A stretch of DNA of 64,000 bases from Thermoproteota archaeon (GCA_026986575.1 JALSOH010000004.1:96001-160000), one strand, 5' to 3'. Positions 48,535 to 63,910 are shown, numbered from the stretch's first letter. Program-made: numbers and translations. The notes: generated by a model from the letters alone, not told the origin.

Positions 48535-50041
<1,507 letters not shown>

Positions 50042-50226
50042 ATTATAATACCAATACCAAGGCCTTCTGGGCCACCCACCCGTGATAGGGACATCCGGAC
50101 TCTCAGTCGGATGATGCTCCGGAGGCGCCACCTCCGGAGTTGAGGCGCAAATCCCGTTAGTTGCCCGCTAACGGGAAATGTGCGCCCCGCATAGTTGGCG
50201 ACGCTACAGGCTGGCGCTAGGTCGTT

Positions 50227-53250
<3,024 letters not shown>

Positions 53251-53470
53251 ACCGACCTAGCGCCAGCCGGCGTAATCGCCAACTATGCGGGGCGCGTTCG
53301 TTTTCACACATATATCCATGGAAAACTTTCCTTTCCTAGAGTCTAGGGTCTTTCTAAAAGCTGTTTCGAGCTTTACCCATTTCGTTAACTTCAAGGATTT
53401 ATTTCATTATTATCTCATAATTAAAGGGAAACTTATATTTCTCCCCCCCCCCAGAATCAGGGTGATCATA

Positions 53471-53773
53471 TTGAAGATATATGGGATTGAAAGAGAGGTA
53501 TTTGCACTTTCTCTCGCAATCCTGTTAATACTGCCGTTAGTAGCCAGTATACCAAACTCCATGGGTGTCTGGATAGGGACCTATGTAAGAACGTGGTCTG
53601 TGAAGCGTGCTCACAGGATGGCTAGCTGGGCGCTTGATCAGATTACCGATCCCATCGGATGGGCAATAGGACACCATACTTGGTACACACGCCTCGCATC
53701 TATCGCACTCATAGCTTATACTGGCATTGGACCTTATTACGCGGCATTCACGATAGGATTCACTGTAGGGTGA
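53471..53773 (+). CDS. Putative circular bacteriocin-like (archaeocin) precursor, 100 aa
   Basis: TTG start after GGTGAT SD; hydrophobic leader ending ..IPN, Trp/Gly/Ala-rich core; GTGA overlap with SpoIIM-like gene. Confidence 0.6.
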   Translation: MKIYGIEREVFALSLAILLILPLVASIPNSMGVWIGTYVRTWSVKRAHRMASWALDQITDPIGWAIGHHTWYTRLASIALIAYTGIGPYYAAFTIGFTVG

Positions 53774-54312
53774 CAGAAATTATTAGAACATCCTGTTTAC
53801 CCGAGTTTTTTATTCTAATCATTTATCTATCATCGTTTGTTGTAGGTACATGGCACACCTTTAACGAAAATGGCGCTCGGGATGGATCCTTCCATCTGAA
53901 GGATGTTAAAAATATTAATATAGATTACCTCGATTTCTTCAGGATGGTATTGTTAAATAATTTAGTGGCAGGTATCTTAATCATTGTGGGAGGATGGTTG
54001 TTCTGCATACCGACTCTCTTAGTCCCCATAGCTTCGGGTTACTTTGCTGGGCTTTACTTTGGAGCTGCTTACAGAGCTTATGGACTCTTCATTTCCTTAA
54101 TTTTGTACATTCCCATGCCCTTGGAGATAGCCGCCATAGTTATCCTAGGTCATGTATCCTTCAAGCTATGTAAGGAGAATCTCAGGAGATTAAGGGGAAA
54201 CGACTCGGATGCTCCTTTGCTCAGAGGCCATATTAAATCTATCACATACGGTATTTTCCTCATAGTTGTAGGTGCTGTGATCGAGACAGTTATTCAATTC
54301 TACATCGGTTAA
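53770..54312 (+). CDS. SpoIIM/DUF95-like membrane protein
   Basis: LNNL...G....IPT.....G...G, P..LEI.A, GAVIET motifs typical of the stage II sporulation M family. Confidence 0.75.
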   Translation: MTEIIRTSCLPEFFILIIYLSSFVVGTWHTFNENGARDGSFHLKDVKNINIDYLDFFRMVLLNNLVAGILIIVGGWLFCIPTLLVPIASGYFAGLYFGAAYRAYGLFISLILYIPMPLEIAAIVILGHVSFKLCKENLRRLRGNDSDAPLLRGHIKSITYGIFLIVVGAVIETVIQFYIG

Positions 54313-54342
54313 ATTCATGAATGAGATCGCCGAGGGAGATTT

Positions 54343-54936
54343 ATGAGGCTATTCTTTTCCTTCATGCTAGTGCTTCTCACGGGAATCATGGTACACCTTT
54401 ACTTCACTATGCCGTTCTTAAAGCCTAGTACCTCCACATACGCCGAAATGGATGTCCGCATTATAAGGGGATCTTTCCTACTCACTCCGGTATTTTCCAG
54501 CCTCATAGTCGTCCTGATATGGGCTGTGGAATCTTCTTTAGCCTCGCTCGTCATCAGAAGATCGGTGAGAGGGGCGGAAAGGTCCCACATAAATTTAGGC
54601 GTCATAATGAGCGAATTTTCCTTGGGATACGTTCCTGAATTTATCTTCCTCCTCATAATAGTCCCGCTCGTATGGTTCAACCTCCCTGAATACACAGTGA
54701 CCTCTGTGAAGGAGCTTATTAACGCATCTAAGAGCCTAGGAGAGTCTCCATTATACGTAAACGGGATGCTCGCTCTGATTGCTGTATCCATATCTCGCTA
54801 TCCCATATACGCAGCCATACTCAGATACAGATTGGATATAGGATGGAGGGAGACCCTCACTATCATCGCCCTGCTTATCATTGTTGATACACTCATAGCT
54901 TTGTGGGGAGGAGGGTTCGACTTAGGTAGGGGGTGA
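54343..54936 (+). CDS. Yip1-like multi-pass membrane protein
   Basis: About 5 TM segments, LGYVP motif; position in cluster. Confidence 0.55.
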   Translation: MRLFFSFMLVLLTGIMVHLYFTMPFLKPSTSTYAEMDVRIIRGSFLLTPVFSSLIVVLIWAVESSLASLVIRRSVRGAERSHINLGVIMSEFSLGYVPEFIFLLIIVPLVWFNLPEYTVTSVKELINASKSLGESPLYVNGMLALIAVSISRYPIYAAILRYRLDIGWRETLTIIALLIIVDTLIALWGGGFDLGRG

Positions 54937-54943
54937 GTTAGGC

Positions 54944-55591
54944 ATGAGAACTGAAGATAACCTCATCTTAGAGGTTAAAAGGATAAGTAAAAGGCTCGGG
55001 AAGAGACAGGTGTTAGCAGATGTGAGCTTCGACGTGAGGAATGGAGAGGTAGTCCTCATAAGGGGGCCCAATGGGTCGGGAAAGACGACGCTTCTAAGAA
55101 CCATTGCTGGGGTGTTTAGACCAGATTCCGGTCGAGTACTCCTATTGGGAAGGGATATTCACGAGGATATGGGTGTGAGGAGAGAAATCAGCTACTGTCC
55201 TGAGAGGCTAGGCCTTCTTGGGGATTACACAATCGAGGATAACATGATGTTCTTTACCAAAGTGTTCGGGAGATCGTTCGACGAGCACAGATTTAGAGAC
55301 TACGTGAAAGGGTTTCGGCTCGAGGGATACTCGGATGACAAGATATCCAAGCTCTCGGCTGGGACTAGGAAGAAGGTGGCTATCATCAGGACTCTCGTCT
55401 TCCCGGCTAGGCTGTACCTGCTTGACGAACCACTAGCTAACCTAGACGAGGAGAGCGTGAGCTTTTTAATTGAGGAAATTAGGAGAATGGCCGATCTAGG
55501 ATCTTCCTTCCTGATATCTTCTCACATAGAGTTCCCGGCTGCTGATCGTGAATTAGAGATGAGAGGTGGGGGACTTGTCGAGGTTAGGTGA
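54944..55591 (+). CDS. ABC transporter ATP-binding protein
   Basis: GPNGSGKTT, LSAG, YLLDEP, SSH. Confidence 0.93.
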   Translation: MRTEDNLILEVKRISKRLGKRQVLADVSFDVRNGEVVLIRGPNGSGKTTLLRTIAGVFRPDSGRVLLLGRDIHEDMGVRREISYCPERLGLLGDYTIEDNMMFFTKVFGRSFDEHRFRDYVKGFRLEGYSDDKISKLSAGTRKKVAIIRTLVFPARLYLLDEPLANLDEESVSFLIEEIRRMADLGSSFLISSHIEFPAADRELEMRGGGLVEVR

Positions 55592-56309
55592 CCTAATAGC
55601 GGGTCACCTCTACCTAATGGGTGGATTGACCAATGTCAGGGAGATCTTCGTGTTCTTGAGCCCACAGATCCTGTTTTTGGCACTAGCTGAGGTCATAGCA
55701 GGATCCAGGACGTATACAGAATTATTGATGGTTACTTCGTTGCTTGAGAGTTTTTCCTTAGTCATTACGTATATTCTCCTTGGTATCGTGGTGCCGGGGA
55801 GGCTAATCAGATTAAGCTACTCGATGAGAGATGCCGGAATGATGGAGATATTCCTGAATCAGGGGGTTGGATTGGATCAGGTATTGCTGTCTCTCTGGAT
55901 CGGTTCGTCCCTAAAATACTCCTTATACGTGATTGCAGGAAGCCTGATAGCCCTGCTCTCTTTATACCTAGCTGGATGGATGACAGTAGTCGAATTCCTA
56001 ACGGCATTGGGCGTGATCGCCGTCATGGTCACACTCTTCTCGGCAATTTGCATTACCCTATCTCTTATCCTTCCTCCCAGTGAAGCTCAATACTGGTCTC
56101 AATTAGTCTTTTTCCTGATCTTCGGATATTTATACTTAGGTTTCCTCAATCCCCGGAATTACAATGATATCGTGAGGCTCTTCTTGGGCGGATACTTAAA
56201 CCCCATGTCGCTGGGTGGAGGGGCCATAGCAACCTTTCTCGTAATAGTTTTACTGATAGGATTATCTGAGGAGAGGGGGGATATTATTGAAATTGATGAG
56301 GTTAAATAA
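55575..56309 (+). CDS. ABC-2-type permease-like membrane protein
   Basis: About 6 TM, RDAGMMEIFL motif resembling the ABC-2 E..G..E.LL. Confidence 0.65.
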   Translation: MSRLGDLIAGHLYLMGGLTNVREIFVFLSPQILFLALAEVIAGSRTYTELLMVTSLLESFSLVITYILLGIVVPGRLIRLSYSMRDAGMMEIFLNQGVGLDQVLLSLWIGSSLKYSLYVIAGSLIALLSLYLAGWMTVVEFLTALGVIAVMVTLFSAICITLSLILPPSEAQYWSQLVFFLIFGYLYLGFLNPRNYNDIVRLFLGGYLNPMSLGGGAIATFLVIVLLIGLSEERGDIIEIDEVK

Positions 56310-56973
56310 TCTAAATGCCCAAATCACCTTGGAATTGACTTTGCTTGTAAGGGGTAGGGGAAAGAGGATCGGGTGGTTAATTAGGGTACTCGTGGTCTCC
56401 ATGGCTGTGCTGTCGCTGGGTCTGCTAAGCTCACTGGAGTTGGGTAATCTCAAAAACATTTACCTATCACTCCCGGGTGTATGGCTCCTGTCTTCGGCCT
56501 TGATGATGGATAATACGGTCGAGATAAAGAATAGCGGTCTTGCTGAGATTTTGCTCCAGACATATGGGCCTTCATATTTGGGTGTGAGGTATCTCCTATA
56601 TACTGTGGTAACGATACTCCTATCAATATCCTTTATTTTGCTGGGAGGCTCTGTAGTTTCACTGATGGTTGGGATAGGATTATCGGGTTTGGATGCCATT
56701 TCCTTGCTATCTCTCTCCGTCATAGGTTCAACGGCTTTAATGACCGTTACAGTCTTATTATCGGTGAAAATTGGTGGCCTGAGGTTATTAGACACCTTTT
56801 CCCTAGCAAGTGGCGGACTTACCCTCCTCCTGATCATTTCCATGCCTTCTATATTGGAGGCGCTTAATCAAGAGTTGTTTGTTTGTATGTTGCTCGCTGG
56901 GACATTCTCCATAGCTGTTCTGACTATAGTGTACCTTAAGAGGCATGACTTTCCGGCATTATTAACAATCTAG
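56296..56973 (+). CDS. ABC-2-type permease-like membrane protein
   Basis: About 6 TM, EIKNSGLAEILL motif. Confidence 0.65.
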   Translation: MRLNNLNAQITLELTLLVRGRGKRIGWLIRVLVVSMAVLSLGLLSSLELGNLKNIYLSLPGVWLLSSALMMDNTVEIKNSGLAEILLQTYGPSYLGVRYLLYTVVTILLSISFILLGGSVVSLMVGIGLSGLDAISLLSLSVIGSTALMTVTVLLSVKIGGLRLLDTFSLASGGLTLLLIISMPSILEALNQELFVCMLLAGTFSIAVLTIVYLKRHDFPALLTI

Positions 56974-58074
56974 TGTCTCGATATTTCCCCTCATGTTCTT
57001 CCCTTCATCTTATATTAGGTTAAAGCATCCGAAGGGCTTGAGAAATTAGAAAATTCGAAGAGATTAGGACTTCTAAGGATCCAATCAAGTATAATTTGAG
57101 GAGAACCCTTAGTCGGAGTGACAGTCAAGAACTCAGTATTGTTCTCCTCACCTGAATTCTCTGGAGATTGTTTCGGCAGTACTGTAAATATTTTAACCGG
57201 TTTAAGCCTAATTAGGCGTCCAAGTGAATATTAGGTGGTTAAGGATCATGAGCGAGATGATGATCTTCTATCCTCTCACTTCGATCCTAACAGCATTGTT
57301 CGTAGAACAGAGGCCGCTTGATAATTTTTTATGTTTTTTTATTACTTTTTAGACGATACTATGCGAAGAAATCAAATTATGCGCGTGGTAAAATAATTAA
57401 AAAAGAAATCTTATTTCTTCAGACTTTTTGGAAAAATTACTTCTAAAGAAAATGCCAAAAAATGTGTTAAAAATTAGATACCTTCAACATCTCTTCTTTA
57501 GGAGCAGAGGTGCTTCTCGCCCCAAACACCTAATTTGCATCGATAATACCTTTTTAAGTGGCCTAGGCAGCCACTTGCTTAGTCGAGAATATGCTTTTTA
57601 TTTTGCACCATTTTTTGGTGATGCGTTGCGATAGCGCATATACACTATGTCACCACCTACTATTGGACCTACCCGCATTAGTTACTAATGCGAGCTGGTA
57701 GAGCTCTCGGTGTTTCAGCAAAATTGTTGTATATAGCTCGAGGATCCTTTGGGCCGTTAATCTTGCTAGAGAAGCACTATAATTTACAAAGTTGATGTCC
57801 TTCAGATGGCTTCAGCCAAATATGTCGAGTCAGAAAGGCTCTTAGCCAAGGATGGGGCTGCATGAGTGGCTACCAATAAAGGGATTAACTAACGAATGCA
57901 AGCCTCCGTCTCCGAAGGCCGAGGATACGAAAACTGTGTTTCCAGTAGAAACCATCAAATGGAAGCCACCACACAAATGATAATCTTCTAGATATCAACA
58001 TTGATAACTTGGAAGCTTCCTACTAGGAAAAGGCTAATTGGCTCATAAAGCCATATTTGACATGGGTGTAGGGA

Positions 58075-58275
58075 TTGTCTAAAGCCATATGGGTGAAGTA
58101 TGAGAAGGGGGTATTGAAGCCTCTGGAGGAGCTAGACCTCCCTGAGGGCGAGGTATTGCTTGTAAAGTTAATTGGGACACAATTGGCAGAGAAGGTATTT
58201 GGTTCCATAAAGGTCGATAAGGAGAGGCTCGAGCACTTTCTGAGGGAAGCTGAAGATGAGTTCGGTGTTTATTGA
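58075..58275 (+). CDS. Antitoxin, AF2212/DUF104 family
   Basis: YEKGVLKPLE.LDLPEG. Confidence 0.9.
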   Translation: MSKAIWVKYEKGVLKPLEELDLPEGEVLLVKLIGTQLAEKVFGSIKVDKERLEHFLREAEDEFGVY

Positions 58276-58690
58276 TAGTAATGTATTCATTAAATACTTT
58301 GCTGGTGACATAGAGGCTAGGAGGCTCTTAGAACCGATAATTTACGGAGATATGCAGGGCTACATTAATAACGTAATTTTCTCAGAAGTACTCTTCATTT
58401 CAGTAAAGCTTCTCACGGGAAGGAAAGCTTACGAATTAAAGAAGAATCCGGAAATAATCAAGAATATATTCGATAAAATAACGGATTACGTTCTCTTCCT
58501 ACGGCAATACTTCAAAGAGTTAGAGATAAATGAAGAGATAAAGCAATCGGCGTATGAAATAATCAGAGACTACGGGCTACTACCCAACGACTCCTTAATC
58601 GCGGCAACATGCAAACACTACGGCATAGATACCATAGTGACTTTTGATGTAGATTTCAGGCGTATACCGTGGCTCAACGTAGTTCCCTAG
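58256..58690 (+). CDS. vapC: VapC PIN-domain toxin
   Basis: FIDSNVF, SEV, YGLLPNDSLIAATC, TFD.DF. Confidence 0.93.
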   Translation: MSSVFIDSNVFIKYFAGDIEARRLLEPIIYGDMQGYINNVIFSEVLFISVKLLTGRKAYELKKNPEIIKNIFDKITDYVLFLRQYFKELEINEEIKQSAYEIIRDYGLLPNDSLIAATCKHYGIDTIVTFDVDFRRIPWLNVVP

Positions 58691-59320
58691 GTTTAGGTTT
58701 AGCTGATGAGTCCTAAGCTAGGAGGATATGCGGGAATGAGGCGGTGCAATGAGCACGTCCTGCCTCTTTTATTAGTGTGGTTATGGATGTTCATCGGTTT
58801 TGTTGTCACCAGCATTTTGTTAGCTATATTAAAAGGGTGTAGTTCACTTCAGAGCGTATCATCGAATTGTATAGCAATGAGCCCTACTTAGCGGTTTACG
58901 GCGAGATAACTAGTATGGGAGGGTTACCTCTCCCATCTCAATCCTATGTGGAGACAGTTTCACGATGTATGGTTTTAGAAGGCAGGGAATGCTCTGAGGA
59001 GCTTAGGGTTATTATCTATATTTGCCATTGTCATGTCAACATTGAGAACCATGCGGAGCGACTGATCCTTTGAGAGCTTTAACCTAAAGTTCCCCCTTAA
59101 TGTTTGGTATGCAGTATTGGGTGTCTTAGCTTACGGTTCTCTAGAGATTTTCTTTGTGGTATGGCTTATAGTAAATGTCTATAGGGTACCTAATAAGTGT
59201 GGAAGGTTATTATCTCATGAGCTACTCATCACTGCTACAATACTTAGTTTGTCGCATTTGGTACTATCCCCTGCAGGTGGAGATCAACGAGAAGGCTGGT
59301 GGGAAGGATTACCCCGTAAG

Positions 59321-59743
59321 TTATGGTCTACTCCCTTCTCCTCAGCCCACTTGATCAGCGATAATGCAAGCTTTTCTATGTCACTGTAGAGCTTATCCTC
59401 CAAGATTTTCCTCACGATATAAAGATCCACAGACTAATACTGATTGATCACAACGTTCCTGAATCTTATGATCTTCCTGAACAGCTCAGCCTCGGGATCG
59501 CTCAGGCAGCTCTCCCGTTTCAGGATCTGAGGGATTCCTATAACTCTAGGGGACAGCAGCTCCAACCTTCGAGGCTGTATGAGCCGTCAGAGCTATGAAC
59601 GCTTGAGATGCTAACTGGAGGGCGTGTAGAGCTGATAGAAGGAGAAACTTATCCTTTAAAATAGCGATTCCGTGTCTCTGAATCCCCTCATCCAGTAACT
59701 CGGTGCCCTCCCTGATGACTTATAGGAGCCTCTCGTTTCTCAT
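59321..59743 (-). pseudogene. Degraded DUF86/HepT-type HEPN RNase
   Basis: MRNERLL*VIREG...LHALQLASQA...P*SY / FRKIIRFRNVVINQY*SVD; three stops and one frameshift. Confidence 0.75.
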
Positions 59744-59900
59744 CTCAGATCCCTCTCCGCGGCCTTTAAGAACTTCCTCCTGAGGTCCAACTTCTCCCTG
59801 AAGACGAGGTAGTCTAGGTATTGGGAGAGGATCCTTCTCTTATTACTCGCTGCAGAGCTGGGGATCCGAGGATCAGAGCGGGATCTCAGATTACAGCGTC
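59740..59900 (-). pseudogene. Probable C-terminal remnant of the cognate MNT antitoxin
   Basis: ...LSQYLDYLVFREKLDLRRKFLKAAERDLR* with ATGA overlap to the HEPN pseudogene; 5' part missing. Confidence 0.45.
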
Positions 59901-59950
59901 GTACAGGAGGCGCGCGCATTCATGCGATAACCCATATGGATCCTCTGCTT

Positions 59951-60466
59951 TTACCCTTCAGCTGAACTCTCTCCGCTTTCTTCACCGCTCCTCTTCTCCT
60001 TCCAAGGTTCTCTTAGTTCTCCTGGCTCTGAGAGCTTATCACCGTACTTGTAGAACAATATGTAGATGAAATAGCTCCCTGCCACTAAGAAGGCAAAGTC
60101 ACGAAGCTCTTTGCCGGGAATTAAGTCTGAGCTAATCCCCAGTCTGATGAGCGTATACGGATAAAGCACTACCATCATAACGTAGAAGGTTATCAGAGAG
60201 AAGAAGACGTATATGAGAGCATATCTCGTTCTCCTTACTTCCAGCATGTAGTAGTCGATCGCACCGATCAGCCCGAAGCTGGTAATTACTATGAGCACTC
60301 CTTCTATAAAAGGTAGATACCTGTTATTCTTACTGGCAACCGGAAAGTATGTAATGAAATGATAGATTAGCATGGCAAAAAGCATAAATATAGTAAATAA
60401 TATCCTCTCTTTGGATGATTTATTTGAACCTCCTACATCTTGAGGCCTTAAGGTACGCATTGACAT
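59951..60466 (-). CDS. 4-TM membrane protein, candidate immunity protein
   Basis: Four hydrophobic segments; overlaps the end of the Cys-rich precursor gene. Confidence 0.65.
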   Translation of the reverse strand: MSMRTLRPQDVGGSNKSSKERILFTIFMLFAMLIYHFITYFPVASKNNRYLPFIEGVLIVITSFGLIGAIDYYMLEVRRTRYALIYVFFSLITFYVMMVVLYPYTLIRLGISSDLIPGKELRDFAFLVAGSYFIYILFYKYGDKLSEPGELREPWKEKRSGEESGESSAEG

Positions 60467-61173
60467 ACCGTACCTACCTCGCTACAACATCCGCCATACA
60501 GGGTAAATACTAAGCAAAAGGGACACCAGACTATCAAGCATTCCCAGAATGCCGGAACATTTCTACAGCTAGCGCAGCAATTGAGAAGACATGAGATATT
60601 CCATCTACAGCAGTACGCGGAGCAACTGCAGTAGTCCCCACATGAATCATATCCTGGATATGCTGTGCAATTATGAGCGCAACTGCTCAAATTTATATAT
60701 GAACCATTGATGATTCTAGCATCAATTGATATATAGTCTTTATGAGAGCTGAGAATCAACGCTATACTTCTAATTTCATTGACTAATTTAGTGCCCTTCA
60801 TATAAATTAAATACTTTCTTTCCTTAAGTGGGATTAGAAGCAGTACTGCTGTGACTATATCTCCATCGACCGAAAATCTAATGAGCGAGCCTTTAGGTTG
60901 AGATGCCTTAAGATCATTTACATTAAGTGCGCCCCTCTCTATAAGAGAAATCACATCATTTGATTTTAAAGCCTCTGTAACGAAATTTTTGAGCTCTGCT
61001 CCCTCCAGTTTCATGTGATCCAATTCAACAAAATAGGGTTCATTTCTTAATCCTTTGTTCGCCTTTATTTTGAGATCTCCTGTACAAGTAATTGATACTA
61101 TGCTGAGAAGAGATGCCTTTAATGCTTCTTTAATAAACCTCCTTCTGCTCAAATTAATTCTCCATAGGCGCAT
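60448..61173 (-). CDS. Twin-arginine secreted precursor with Cys-rich C-terminal domain (halocin C8-like architecture)
   Basis: SRRRFIK Tat motif; 18 Cys in the last ~77 aa. Confidence 0.65.
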   Translation of the reverse strand: MRLWRINLSRRRFIKEALKASLLSIVSITCTGDLKIKANKGLRNEPYFVELDHMKLEGAELKNFVTEALKSNDVISLIERGALNVNDLKASQPKGSLIRFSVDGDIVTAVLLLIPLKERKYLIYMKGTKLVNEIRSIALILSSHKDYISIDARIINGSYINLSSCAHNCTAYPGYDSCGDYCSCSAYCCRWNISCLLNCCASCRNVPAFWECLIVWCPFCLVFTLYGGCCSEVGTVCQCVP

Positions 61174-61533
61174 GAGCGTAATAGACATTCCTGAAATATA
61201 AATTCTACGTTCTATTCCTATGCATTCTTTCCTTGAGAATCTCACCTTACCCTCTACATTTCCGCCCTCAGGCCATATCGCGTTTAGGGCTTCCTTGAAT
61301 CCTAGATCCGCTGATCTGAACAGTCTGATCGCAAGTTCCTTGAGGTAGAGACCAATTTGCCTCCTTTAACTTGGCCTTTATTAACTCTTTGTTCTTTCTC
61401 GCTTTTGTCTCCTTTATTCTCGTCTCTACGATTCTTCTGAGCTTCTCAGCGCGCGAATAGGATTATTAAAGTTCATCACAGATCTTCGGGAATTCGTTAA
61501 ATACTTCCCGAAGATTTAATGCTTGGAACCCTC

Positions 61534-63376: not shown

Positions 63377-63674
63377 GGGGGAGAGGAGGCCGGGGGTTAC
63401 GGCCGTAAGGCTGAGGAAGGTCCGCCCACGCCCCCAGCACCGCCTCCCCGTAAGGGGATGCCCCGAGAGGGGCAGGAAGGCCCACAGAAACGACACGTCC
63501 CTCGGGGCATGGCGATGATGCCGGTGAGGCAGAGGACCCCGAGGGGACCGGTGAAACGGGGCCCCGGCGGTGTGCAAGCCAGTCCCCGCAATGAGCAGCT
63601 GGGGCGAGCGGGGGGTAGGCGCTCAGCCGAATCCCCCAAGTACAGAAGGCGGACTATGGCCTCCACTCCCCCCC
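63377..63674 (+). ncRNA. rnpB: RNase P RNA
   Basis: GAGGAAGGTCC, CAGAAA, TGAAAC, GCAAG, ACAGAAGGCGGACTAT; paired termini. Confidence 0.93.
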
Positions 63675-63836: not shown

Positions 63837-63910
63837 AGCGGGGTGGGGCAGCCTGGTAGCCCGCCGGGCTCATAACCCGGAGGTCGGTGGTTCAAATCCA
63901 CCCCCCGCTA
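63837..63910 (+). tRNA. Initiator tRNA-Met(CAU)
   Basis: A1-U72, GGG/CCC anticodon stem, ct-CAT-aa. Confidence 0.93.

What the first reader, a model, noticed from the sequence alone, without database searches (positions are those of the whole stretch)
53471..56973. Candidate archaeal head-to-tail circular bacteriocin gene cluster
Seen: six closely spaced co-oriented genes, three junctions overlapping, right after the 23S rRNA in AT-richer DNA. They encode a 100-aa hydrophobic peptide, a SpoIIM/DUF95-like protein, a Yip1-like membrane protein, an ABC ATPase and two ABC-2-like permeases. Established: precursor + DUF95/SpoIIM + ATPase (+ Yip1 and ABC permeases) is the signature of Firmicute circular bacteriocin loci such as AS-48, gassericin A and circularin. 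SpoIIM-linked peptide loci have been predicted computationally in archaea, but I know of no characterised product. Inference: this is a complete biosynthesis/export/immunity system for a cyclic 'archaeocin' in a thermophilic korarchaeon.
Basis: partly seen in the sequence, partly recalled or inferred. Interest (0 to 1): 0.9.

Follow-up and report, generated by a model that had tools for sequence, protein, structure and literature searches.

The report
Archaeal SpoIIM-linked secreted-peptide gene cluster
Just after the ribosomal RNA genes of a hydrothermal-vent archaeon lies a small accessory operon with the gene signature that bacteria use to make ring-shaped antimicrobial peptides, which would be new for archaea if the peptide is really made and cyclised.

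Summary
The six co-oriented genes are real. Three junctions overlap, and the cluster starts 213 bases after the 23S rRNA in AT-richer DNA. Family searches confirm SpoIIM/DUF95 (Pfam E 7.8e-16) and an ABC ATPase. "Yip1-like" rests only on a structural lead. "ABC-2-like" is not confirmed for either permease.

The small ORF is a true gene. Homologues of 94, 55 and 53% identity keep a signal-like leader, a conserved start of a 70-residue core and a conserved C-terminal GFTxG.

The genome has four stand-alone SpoIIM genes. Each follows a small leader-bearing hydrophobic ORF, and their partner genes differ between loci (one locus has an M48 peptidase). A fifth, fused SpoIIM is the core copy found in all 27 phylum genomes searched.

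The six genes travel together in a second species, in permuted order. A third species keeps only the Yip-like and ABC genes at the same site.

My reading is an accessory system that makes, exports and resists a cationic, aromatic-rich secreted peptide, built like circular-bacteriocin loci. Cyclisation, activity and fold are untested: AlphaFold gave no compact bundle, and the peptide resembles no known precursor. I found no print report of an archaeal locus of this kind in the library searched.

The parts
53433..53470 (+). Putative expression signals of the small gene: an AT-rich TATA-like stretch (53433-53439), a C10 homopolymer (53443-53452) and a Shine-Dalgarno-like GGTGATC (53461-53467) three bases before the TTG start.
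   Evidence: Read from the sequence. GGGTGA also precedes the start of the G003 homologue, and the C tract is C7 in G020. Promoter function is inferred and was not tested.
53471..53773 (+). Precursor-like small gene of 100 aa. The leader is residues 1-30 (53471-53560) and holds the ORF's only transmembrane-grade hydrophobic segment. The predicted core is residues 31-100 (53561-53770): 70 aa, pI 9.7, 5 Trp, 5 Tyr, 0 Cys.
   Evidence: ORF. Homologues of 94, 55 and 53% identity with invariant S30-M31, V33-W34, DPIG, HTWYTR and a C-terminal GFTxG. Hydropathy. Amphipathic segment. No Pfam, NCBIfam or PDB match.
53770..54312 (+). Stand-alone SpoIIM/DUF95 membrane protein of 180 aa with about 4 hydrophobic segments. 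Its GTG start overlaps the stop of the small gene (GTGA).
   Evidence: Pfam PF01944, E 7.8e-16. Orthologues of 96% (G020) and 44% (G003) identity. In G020 the longest ORF starts at the equivalent GTG.
54343..54936 (+). Membrane protein of 197 aa with about 5 hydrophobic segments. A Yip1-like fold is a lead only.
   Evidence: No Pfam hit. Atlas structure TM 0.59 to a Yip1 cluster. Homologues in G020, G011 and G003.
54944..55591 (+). ABC-type ATPase of 215 aa, consisting of a nucleotide-binding domain only; CcmA-like by sequence.
   Evidence: PF00005, E 1.6e-30. TIGR01189 138.6 bits. The genome's CcmB/CcmC-type genes lie about 500 kb away.
55566..56309 (+). Polytopic membrane protein of 247 aa, the presumed permease 1 of the ABC transporter.
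   Evidence: About 5-6 hydrophobic segments and a 26-base overlap with the ATPase gene. Only 3 family members among 5.8 billion clusters, none with a Pfam domain. Homologues in G020, G011 and G003, and a remnant in G009.
56287..56973 (+). Polytopic membrane protein of 228 aa, the presumed permease 2.
   Evidence: About 5-6 hydrophobic segments and a 23-base overlap with permease 1. No family match. Conserved in G020, G011 and G003.

Best explanation
This is an accessory, lineage-restricted operon for a small secreted membrane-active peptide, built on the plan of bacterial circular-bacteriocin loci.

Proposed mechanism (all steps inferred):
1. The first gene gives a 100-residue precursor with a 30-residue signal-like hydrophobic leader and a 70-residue cationic, Trp/Tyr/Gly-rich core.
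2. The translationally coupled SpoIIM/DUF95 membrane protein acts on or with this peptide, in leader removal, maturation, release and/or self-protection.
3. The Yip-like membrane protein and the ABC ATPase with its two membrane subunits export the product or pump it out of the producer's own membrane (immunity).

Shown: the genes, their families where stated, their conservation, their coupling, and the recurrent peptide-SpoIIM pairing.

Inferred: that the peptide is processed and exported, that SpoIIM acts on it, that it is antagonistic, and that its ends are joined. I put head-to-tail cyclisation at about 0.3 overall.
For: (1) Signature. Small ORF + SpoIIM (E 7.8e-16) + ABC ATPase (E 1.6e-30) in one tightly packed operon. 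This equals the minimum set required of circular-bacteriocin clusters in PMC8534725, whose cerecyclin cluster also has a YIP1 protein and an ABC transporter (passages). PMC13289728 and PMC5695211 call PF01944 the class-defining or least common conserved domain of such clusters (passages).

(2) The small ORF is a real, constrained gene.
- Homologues have 94% (G020), 55% (G003) and 53% (P0004) identity.
- Of the 40 columns invariant across the four sequences, 7 lie in the 30-residue leader (residues 1-30 minus S30) and 33 in S30-G100. They cluster at S30-M31, V33-W34 and the terminal G96-F97-T98/G100.
- A strong SD-like motif precedes the start in both G000 and G003.

(3) Peptide properties. The core is 70 aa, pI 9.69, without Cys, with hydrophobic ends (mean Eisenberg 0.68 and 0.62). 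It has a polybasic amphipathic segment with muH 0.62, reached by 21 of 2000 shuffles. Vezina et al. (PMC7132975, passages) list conserved hydrophobic termini, a polybasic region, flanking aromatics and translational coupling as recurrent features of circular bacteriocins.

(4) Recurrence. 4 of 4 stand-alone SpoIIM genes in this genome directly follow a co-oriented 81-100-aa ORF with a basic N-terminus, a hydrophobic stretch with a Pro, then a Gly/aromatic-rich part.
- Partner genes differ between loci: an M48 peptidase (E 3.1e-22), small two-helix basic-tailed proteins, and other polytopic proteins.
- The peptide of type C is conserved next to SpoIIM in G019 and, at 26% identity (E 5e-6), in G003. 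The peptide of type E is conserved in G020.

(5) Accessory distribution.
- Every one of 27 phylum genomes searched has one long fused SpoIIM. Stand-alone copies occur only in G000 (4), G003 (5), G020 (2), G019 (1) and G044 (1, followed by a CPBP/Rce1-like protease, E 2.2e-10).
- The peptide and its SpoIIM occur in 3 of 41 related genomes, G000 included.

(6) Linkage. In G003 all six genes are again together, though in cyclically permuted order.

(7) The site is variable. G009 has only a decayed piece of permease 1 after its 23S.
Against: - No sequence similarity of the peptide to any known precursor family: Pfam and NCBIfam at E<=1, PDB profile search at E<=10 with 0 hits, Atlas best score 0.75.
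- AlphaFold2 gave no compact helical bundle. The full precursor had pLDDT 55.6. The core alone folded as one 68-residue helix, pLDDT 82 and pTM 0.41, from a single sequence.
- The leader looks like an ordinary Sec signal peptide, with V-A-S or G-A-S before the conserved Met. Ordinary export and cleavage without SpoIIM is therefore possible.
- G011 carries Yip-like + ATPase + both permeases at the same place with neither peptide nor SpoIIM. The transporter can exist on its own and may have an unrelated job.
- The four peptide types of the genome are not demonstrably homologous (BLAST E >= 0.05; hhalign probability < 1%).
- No large As-48B/CirB-type membrane protein and no obvious small immunity protein lie in this cluster.
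- SpoIIM is universal in this phylum as a fused core gene, so the domain by itself is not diagnostic in archaea.
- The C-terminal residue is Gly. From recall, known circular bacteriocins mostly end in an aromatic or aliphatic residue.
- No expression data exist.
Confidence: 0.5

Rival explanations
1. Same kind of system, but the product is linear. A Sec-exported, signal-peptidase-processed small cationic peptide serves as bacteriocin-like toxin, signal or surface peptide. SpoIIM serves as immunity or handling protein and the ABC transporter as immunity pump. No head-to-tail bond is made.
For: The leader has the n-h-c layout of a signal peptide, with a Pro in the h-region and small residues at -3/-1 before the conserved Met in 3 of 4 sequences. 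No cyclase is known or recognisable. AlphaFold shows no fold that brings the ends together. In type-E loci a membrane M48 peptidase sits between peptide and SpoIIM, which suggests proteolytic rather than ligating chemistry.
Against: Both ends of the predicted core are among its most conserved parts and both are hydrophobic. That is what the literature reports for ligation sites (PMC7132975 passages). In bacteria the peptide-SpoIIM-ATPase trio is reported for circular, not linear, bacteriocins.
Confidence: 0.27
2. Two unrelated units lie side by side. One is an ABC transporter with a Yip-like accessory protein, working on some lipid, metal or other cell-envelope substrate. The other is a SpoIIM protein with a small membrane subunit that serves membrane housekeeping. 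There is no antagonistic peptide.
For: G011 has the four transporter genes alone at the same site. SpoIIM is a core gene of the phylum in fused form. The transporter's membrane proteins belong to no known family. The function of SpoIIM in archaea is unknown.
Against: The six genes stay together in G003 despite rearrangement and 44-55% divergence. Peptide and SpoIIM are translationally coupled. Stand-alone SpoIIM copies are patchy and multi-copy: 5 of 27 phylum genomes hold them, up to 5 per genome, which is not what a housekeeping function predicts. After its leader the mature part of the peptide has no transmembrane-grade segment. Partner genes at sister loci include M48 and CPBP proteases; from recall, such proteases are typical of peptide processing and bacteriocin self-immunity.
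Confidence: 0.17
3. The ATPase and permeases are the CcmABC haem exporter of cytochrome c maturation.
For: The ATPase passes the NCBIfam ccmA equivalog cut-off (138.6 against 131.6 bits).
Against: Neither membrane protein matches CcmB or CcmC/Cytochrom_C_asm at E<=1. The genome's CcmB-like and Cytochrom_C_asm genes lie together at C4:647-652 kb, about 500 kb away. The cluster occurs in only 4 of 41 related genomes.
Confidence: 0.02
4. The small protein is a type IV pilin-like or other structural surface protein with a class III signal peptide.
For: It has a short charged N-terminus followed by a hydrophobic helix. The type-E peptide has a K-K-A-L motif that recalls prepilin peptidase sites (the motif consensus is recalled).
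Against: The window peptide and its homologues lack the [KR]-[GA] site. Conservation is highest after the hydrophobic stretch, not within it. The mature part is only about 70 residues, is predicted all-helical, and has no pilin or flagellin family match. No prepilin peptidase, ATPase of the secretion type or platform gene lies in the cluster.
Confidence: 0.03

Closest known systems
Circular (head-to-tail cyclised) bacteriocin gene clusters of Bacillota, e.g. enterocin AS-48 (as-48ABCC1DD1EFGH) and cerecyclin (cycA, B, C[DUF95], D[ATPase], I, YIP1, EFG)
   Same: A small leader-bearing precursor gene is followed by a DUF95/SpoIIM membrane protein and an ABC ATPase, plus a Yip-like protein and ABC membrane subunits. 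Gene junctions overlap. The core is about 70 residues, cationic and Cys-free, with hydrophobic conserved ends and a polybasic segment.
   Different: The host is an archaeon. The peptide matches none of the known precursor families. No As-48B/CirB-type large membrane protein and no recognisable small immunity protein is present. The Yip1 and permease assignments are not supported by HMMs. The leader resembles a Sec signal. Cyclisation, fold and activity are not shown.
Immunity-type ABC transporters of bacteriocin loci (As-48EFGH) and 'orphan immunity' loci in non-producers
   Same: An ATPase plus membrane subunits sits downstream of the producer genes. A related species (G011) retains only this part at the same site.
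   Different: No sequence relationship beyond the generic ABC ATPase. The immunity function is inferred only.
SpoIIM of Bacillus subtilis (engulfment during sporulation) and the fused long SpoIIM protein that is a core gene of this archaeal phylum
   Same: The same Pfam domain, PF01944.
   Different: The window protein is a short stand-alone copy of 180 aa. It is patchily distributed, multi-copy and always next to a small leader-bearing ORF. The 460-577-aa fused form occurs once in each of the 27 genomes. There is no sporulation context.
Known archaeocins (halocins, sulfolobicins; recalled, not searched by sequence here)
   Same: Ribosomally made antagonistic peptides or proteins of archaea.
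   Different: From recall, none is reported as SpoIIM-dependent or head-to-tail cyclised. Pfam and NCBIfam gave no hit of the window peptide to any family.
CcmABC haem exporter
   Same: ATPase sequence similarity above the ccmA equivalog cut-off.
   Different: The membrane partners are not CcmB/CcmC. The Ccm-type genes are elsewhere in the genome.

Membership tests
Circular bacteriocin biosynthetic gene cluster | A DUF95/SpoIIM (PF01944) membrane protein encoded in the cluster | tested here: met
   PF01944, E 7.8e-16, 58.9 bits against a cut-off of 26.9. The G003 orthologue scores E 5.6e-12.
Circular bacteriocin biosynthetic gene cluster | An ATP-binding (ABC-type) protein encoded in the cluster | tested here: met
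   PF00005, E 1.6e-30.
Circular bacteriocin biosynthetic gene cluster | A small precursor gene (<~110 aa) with a leader and a core of about 58-70 aa next to the DUF95 gene | tested here: met
   100-aa ORF. Its 30-aa leader is the only transmembrane-grade segment. The 70-aa core is conserved in 4 sequences. The cleavage site is inferred from conservation, not shown.
Circular bacteriocin biosynthetic gene cluster | Precursor belongs to a known circular-bacteriocin sequence family (Pfam Bacteriocin_IId / BacteriocIIc_cy, TIGR03651) | tested here: not met
   0 Pfam families and no relevant NCBIfam family at E<=1. 0 PDB chains at E<=10 with the family profile.
Circular bacteriocin biosynthetic gene cluster | Compact four- or five-helix (saposin-like) fold with N- and C-termini adjacent | tested here: inconclusive
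   AlphaFold2 on the full precursor gave pLDDT 55.6. The core alone gave a single 68-residue helix, pTM 0.41, from one sequence. Only 4 homologues exist, so no deep alignment is possible.
Circular bacteriocin biosynthetic gene cluster | Peptide bond between the first and last residue of the core | not testable with these tools
   Needs mass spectrometry of the product.
Circular bacteriocin biosynthetic gene cluster | Antimicrobial activity and producer self-immunity | not testable with these tools
   No culture and no expression data. No RNA run holds the stretch (a blank, not evidence).
Yip1 family (PF04893), gene 54343-54936 | Match to the Yip1 profile | tested here: not met
   No hit at E<=1. 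The genome-wide Yip1 HMM at E<=10 hits two other genes only. An Atlas structural lead (TM 0.59) to a Yip1 cluster remains.
ABC-2 type transporter permeases, genes 55566-56309 and 56287-56973 | Match to an ABC2_membrane profile | tested here: not met
   Best is ABC2_membrane_5 at E 0.38, 10.7 bits against a cut-off of 25, for permease 1. Nothing for permease 2. The G003 orthologues also match nothing.
CcmABC haem exporter | CcmB and CcmC membrane subunits beside CcmA | tested here: not met
   No CcmB or Cytochrom_C_asm match in the cluster. Such genes lie at C4:647-652 kb.

The most novel reading that the evidence does not exclude
A hydrothermal-vent archaeal lineage carries a whole family of SpoIIM-dependent ribosomal peptides, with up to five different modules per genome. 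In these modules the stand-alone SpoIIM protein is the conserved maturation and handling component, and at least the window's peptide is head-to-tail cyclised. These would be the first circular 'archaeocins'. They would show that the DUF95-based cyclisation machinery predates or crosses the bacterial-archaeal divide. The module-only relatives (G011) would be orphan-immunity holders in an ongoing peptide arms race at a hot spot downstream of the rRNA operon.
Probability: 0.25. Interest if true: 0.85.

Novelty: new variant of a known kind. Interest (0 to 1): 0.62.

Why it matters
In the surveys I could read, circular bacteriocins are known and predicted almost only in Bacillota. Xin et al. 2020 found 6,925 precursors in Firmicutes, 2 in Actinobacteria and 1 in Thermotogae, and the word 'archaea' occurs 0 times in that paper and in Vezina et al. 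2020. The enzyme that closes the ring is still unidentified.

An archaeal, probably thermophilic, lineage offers a minimal and very divergent comparison set for asking what SpoIIM/DUF95 does to small peptides. It has several SpoIIM-peptide modules whose only shared protein is SpoIIM. It could also yield very heat-stable peptides.

It would add a new class to the few known archaeal antagonistic peptides. Even if the peptides are linear, the recurrent 'leader-peptide + stand-alone SpoIIM' module is an unannotated accessory system of archaea.

Tried and rejected
- Word-indexed searches of 5.8 billion protein clusters found only the query's own cluster for the peptide and for SpoIIM. For permease 1 they found 3 proteins, none with a Pfam domain.
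- The exhaustive profile search of 1.84 billion representatives with the peptide alignment gave 3 hits: self, P0004, and a 526-aa repeat protein that I judged spurious from its sequence.
- The metagenome contig scan found 76 pattern matches, none confirmed. The genomic context of P0004 could therefore not be seen.
- ESM Atlas for the peptide gave a best score of 0.75, below any useful level.
- PDB profile searches with the peptide and the SpoIIM alignments gave 0 hits.
- PADLOC gave only generic P-loop/ABC similarity of the ATPase, so I rejected a known anti-phage system.
- AlphaFold2 models were uninformative. I did not send them to fold search, because a single long helix or a model of pLDDT 55 would give meaningless matches.
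- Complex prediction of SpoIIM with the peptide gave no verdict (score 0.00, controls not run). It counts neither for nor against binding.
- The look-up of sequencing runs listed no RNA holder, so nothing can be said on expression.
- Homology among the four peptide types of the genome was tested and not found. The same holds for homology between the window's 197-aa protein and the 199-aa protein after the type-E SpoIIM.
- dN/dS of the small gene between G000 and G020 rests on 5 non-synonymous and 1 synonymous difference, too few to interpret.
- The Ccm reading and the pilin reading were considered and rejected (see rivals).
- Literature. Five full-text searches for archaeal circular bacteriocins or SpoIIM-linked peptides returned no paper whose title or abstract describes such a locus. 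I read matched passages only, from PMC13289728, PMC8534725, PMC5695211 and PMC7132975. Makarova et al. 2019 (mBio) is not held, and supplements are closed. A prior computational prediction there or in supplementary tables cannot be excluded.

Full report
OBSERVATION

The window holds an archaeal rRNA operon, with the 16S at 48535-50041 and the 23S at 50220-53257. From 53471 to 56973 six ORFs follow on the + strand. Their junction gaps are -4, +30, +7, -26 and -23 bases. G+C falls from 0.64-0.68 in the rRNA to 0.43-0.50 in the cluster, and the contig as a whole is 0.525.

Family searches gave these results:
- Gene 2 (53770-54312) is a SpoIIM/DUF95 protein: PF01944, E 7.8e-16, above the curated cut-off.
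- Gene 4 (54944-55591) is an ABC ATPase: PF00005, E 1.6e-30. It is closest to the ccmA model, 138.6 bits against a cut-off of 131.6.
- The 100-aa ORF, the 197-aa protein and permease 2 match no Pfam or NCBIfam family at E<=1.
- Permease 1 has only a 10.7-bit, E 0.38 match to ABC2_membrane_5.
- The Yip1 profile run over the whole genome at E<=10 hits two other genes and not the 197-aa gene.
- The ESM Atlas gives a structural lead for the 197-aa protein: TM 0.59 to a cluster that is 100% Yip1.

Hydropathy suggests about 4 segments for SpoIIM, 5 for the Yip-like protein and 5-6 for each permease. The physical observation is therefore confirmed. Two of the six family labels (Yip1, ABC-2) are not.

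IS THE SMALL ORF A GENE?

Yes. The evidence is as follows.
- A TTG start at 53471 is preceded by GGTGATC at 53461-53467.
- Among 41 related genomes, G000 included, the ORF is found in three: G000, G020 (94% identity) and G003 (55%, E 1.3e-23).
- An exhaustive profile search of 1.84 billion representative proteins added one more homologue, P0004 (97 aa, 53%), and otherwise only a spurious repeat protein.
- In the four-sequence alignment, 7 of the 40 invariant columns lie in the leader (residues 1-29). The other 33 lie from S30 onwards, including S30-M31, V33-W34, D60-P61-I62-G63, H69-T70-W71-Y72-T73-R74 and the very end, G96-F97-T98 and G100.
- The only transmembrane-grade hydrophobic segment is in the leader, residues 10-28.
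- The G003 homologue also has a GGGTGA motif before its ATG.

The predicted 70-residue core (residues 31-100) has these properties:
- pI 9.69, with 5 Lys+Arg against 2 Asp+Glu.
- 5 Trp, 5 Tyr, 8 Gly and no Cys.
- Hydrophobic ends.
- One strongly amphipathic polybasic segment, with muH 0.62 reached by 21 of 2000 shuffles.

THE WIDER PATTERN: SpoIIM PLUS A SMALL LEADER-BEARING ORF

The genome has five SpoIIM matches. One is the C-terminal domain of a 460-aa protein. The long form occurs once in each of the 27 genomes of at least 90% completeness that the tool holds for this phylum. It occurs in 18 of 21 genomes of the genus, and the three without it are 63-78% complete. I take it to be the core copy.

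The other four are short stand-alone genes. Each is preceded on the same strand by an 81-100-aa ORF with a basic N-terminus, a hydrophobic stretch with a Pro, and a Gly/aromatic-rich remainder. The four loci are:

| Locus | Location | Gene content |
|---|---|---|
| Window | C4 (window 53471-56973) | peptide, SpoIIM, Yip-like protein, ABC ATPase, two permeases |
| Type B | C6:405061-406435 | peptide, 136-aa membrane protein, SpoIIM |
| Type C | C1:32242-33989, minus strand | peptide, small basic-tailed membrane protein, SpoIIM, 235-aa membrane protein |
| Type E | C4:163695-166034, minus strand, 14 kb beyond the window's cluster | peptide, M48 peptidase (E 3.1e-22), SpoIIM, 199-aa membrane protein |

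The type C and type E peptides are conserved next to SpoIIM in G019 and G020. A 26%-identical type C peptide (E 5e-6) sits in the same arrangement in G003.

Stand-alone SpoIIM genes occur in only 5 of the 27 phylum genomes above the cut-off: G000 has 4, G003 has 5, G020 has 2, G019 has 1 and G044 has 1. In G044 the gene is followed by a CPBP/Rce1-like protease (E 2.2e-10).

Against over-reading this pattern:
- The four peptide types of G000 are not demonstrably homologous to one another.
- At two further G003 loci the upstream small ORFs look like small multi-helix membrane proteins rather than leader-plus-core peptides.

LINKAGE OF THE SIX GENES

- G020 has the same cluster at the same place, with 96.5% DNA identity over window 52577-57119.
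- G003 has all six genes on a 3,428-base contig in the order ATPase, permease 1, permease 2, peptide, SpoIIM, Yip-like protein. This is a cyclic permutation of the window's order, and the contig ends fall inside the ATPase and Yip-like genes. The ends do not overlap.
- G011 has, 157 bases after its 23S, the Yip-like gene (56% identity), the ATPase, permease 1 (51%) and permease 2. It has no peptide gene and no SpoIIM gene, and neither was found elsewhere in that genome with these queries.
- G009 has only a 97-residue remnant of permease 1 after its 23S.
- The other four genomes whose 23S ends I examined (G012, G014, G015, G017) show no similarity downstream. G018 shows similarity only to the RNase P region.

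So peptide + SpoIIM is one separable unit and Yip-like + ABC is another. The site downstream of the rRNA operon is a variable spot. Relative to G020, the window carries a further 4.35-kb insert at 57120-61470.

WHAT IT MOST LIKELY IS

The circular-bacteriocin literature gives these criteria:
[quoted passage not shown] - PMC5695211 and PMC13289728 (passages) use PF01944 as the defining domain.
- PMC7132975 (passages) lists as recurrent features hydrophobic conserved termini, a polybasic region, aromatic residues and translational coupling.

The window's cluster meets the gene-content criteria, and the peptide fits these qualitative features. On that basis I favour a peptide production, export and immunity system of circular-bacteriocin architecture (confidence 0.5). 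On this reading G011 is an orphan-immunity holder.

Cyclisation itself is not shown, and I rate it at about 0.3. My reasons:
- The peptide belongs to no known precursor family.
- AlphaFold2 gave no compact bundle.
- The leader could be an ordinary Sec signal.
- No As-48B-type protein is present.
- In this phylum the SpoIIM domain also exists as a core gene, so it is less diagnostic than in Bacillota.

The main rivals are a linear secreted peptive with the same accessory genes (0.27) and two unrelated neighbouring units (0.17). The Ccm reading is rejected because the permeases are not CcmB/CcmC and the Ccm-type genes lie 500 kb away. The pilin reading is weak (see rivals).

ORGANISM

The two relatives that carry the cluster are titled 'MAG: Thermoproteota archaeon'. 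One run that holds the stretch is labelled hydrothermal vent metagenome. From established knowledge, the high rRNA G+C fits a thermophile.

NOVELTY

Five full-text searches and passages of four papers gave no report of an archaeal locus of this kind. The two large in-silico surveys that I could read in passages do not mention archaea. Makarova et al. 2019 could not be read and supplements are closed, so an earlier computational mention cannot be excluded.

I rate the finding a new variant of a known kind. It has a familiar gene signature, but in a new domain of life, with an unrelated peptide family, unrelated transporter subunits, and a multi-module organisation around stand-alone SpoIIM.

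LIMITS

- All functional statements are inferred from gene content, conservation and context.
- There are only four peptide sequences.
- There are no expression data (one search is a blank, not evidence).
- The complex prediction gave no verdict.

Noticed in passing
L015 (G003:C25:1-3428): The G003 copy of the six-gene cluster sits on a 3.4-kb contig in cyclically permuted order (ATPase, permease 1, permease 2, peptide, SpoIIM, Yip-like). The contig ends fall inside the two genes that are neighbours in the window. This could reflect a tandem duplication, a circular form or a true rearrangement. The ends share no overlap.
   Followed up: partly
window 53443-53452: A C10 homopolymer lies between the AT-rich putative promoter and the ribosome-binding site of the small gene. 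The same tract is C7 in G020. It could be a variable-length tract that affects expression, or assembly noise.
   Followed up: no
window 57120-61470: A 4.35-kb stretch is absent from G020 at this position. It carries a VapB-like/PIN (VapC-like) pair at 58075-58690 and small ORFs. Parts of it are repeated at 70-82% identity on contigs C1 (next to the type-C SpoIIM module) and C11.
   Followed up: partly
G000:C4:163695-166034 (about 4-6 kb beyond the window's end), and G003:C57: A second SpoIIM module (peptide, M48 peptidase, SpoIIM, 199-aa membrane protein) lies 14 kb downstream of the window's cluster. In G003 two different modules are directly adjacent on one contig. The modules tend to cluster.
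   Followed up: partly
G000:C4:794398-795780 and one locus in each of the 27 phylum genomes searched: A 460-577-aa protein whose C-terminal part is a SpoIIM domain is present once in every genome of the phylum searched. It is a conserved core gene of unknown role. I did not scan its N-terminal part.
   Followed up: no
G000:C4:160370-161441 (just beyond the window's end): Two adjacent ORFs (240 and 127 aa) resemble a single 355-aa ORF in G011 with a LAGLIDADG-like motif (read by eye, not scanned). This may be a split homing-endonuclease-like gene near the tRNA/RNase P RNA region.
   Followed up: no
window 63381-63668 and 63837-63910: Archaeal RNase P RNA (179 bits) and a tRNA lie downstream of the variable region. 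In G018 the RNase P RNA region lies much closer to the 23S end.
   Followed up: no
L016 (G020:C26) 1757-2345: In G020 the Yip-like gene has an indel near its 5' end, so that the long frame starts 8 codons later than in the window. The genome search reports one TAG within the matched stretch.
   Followed up: no
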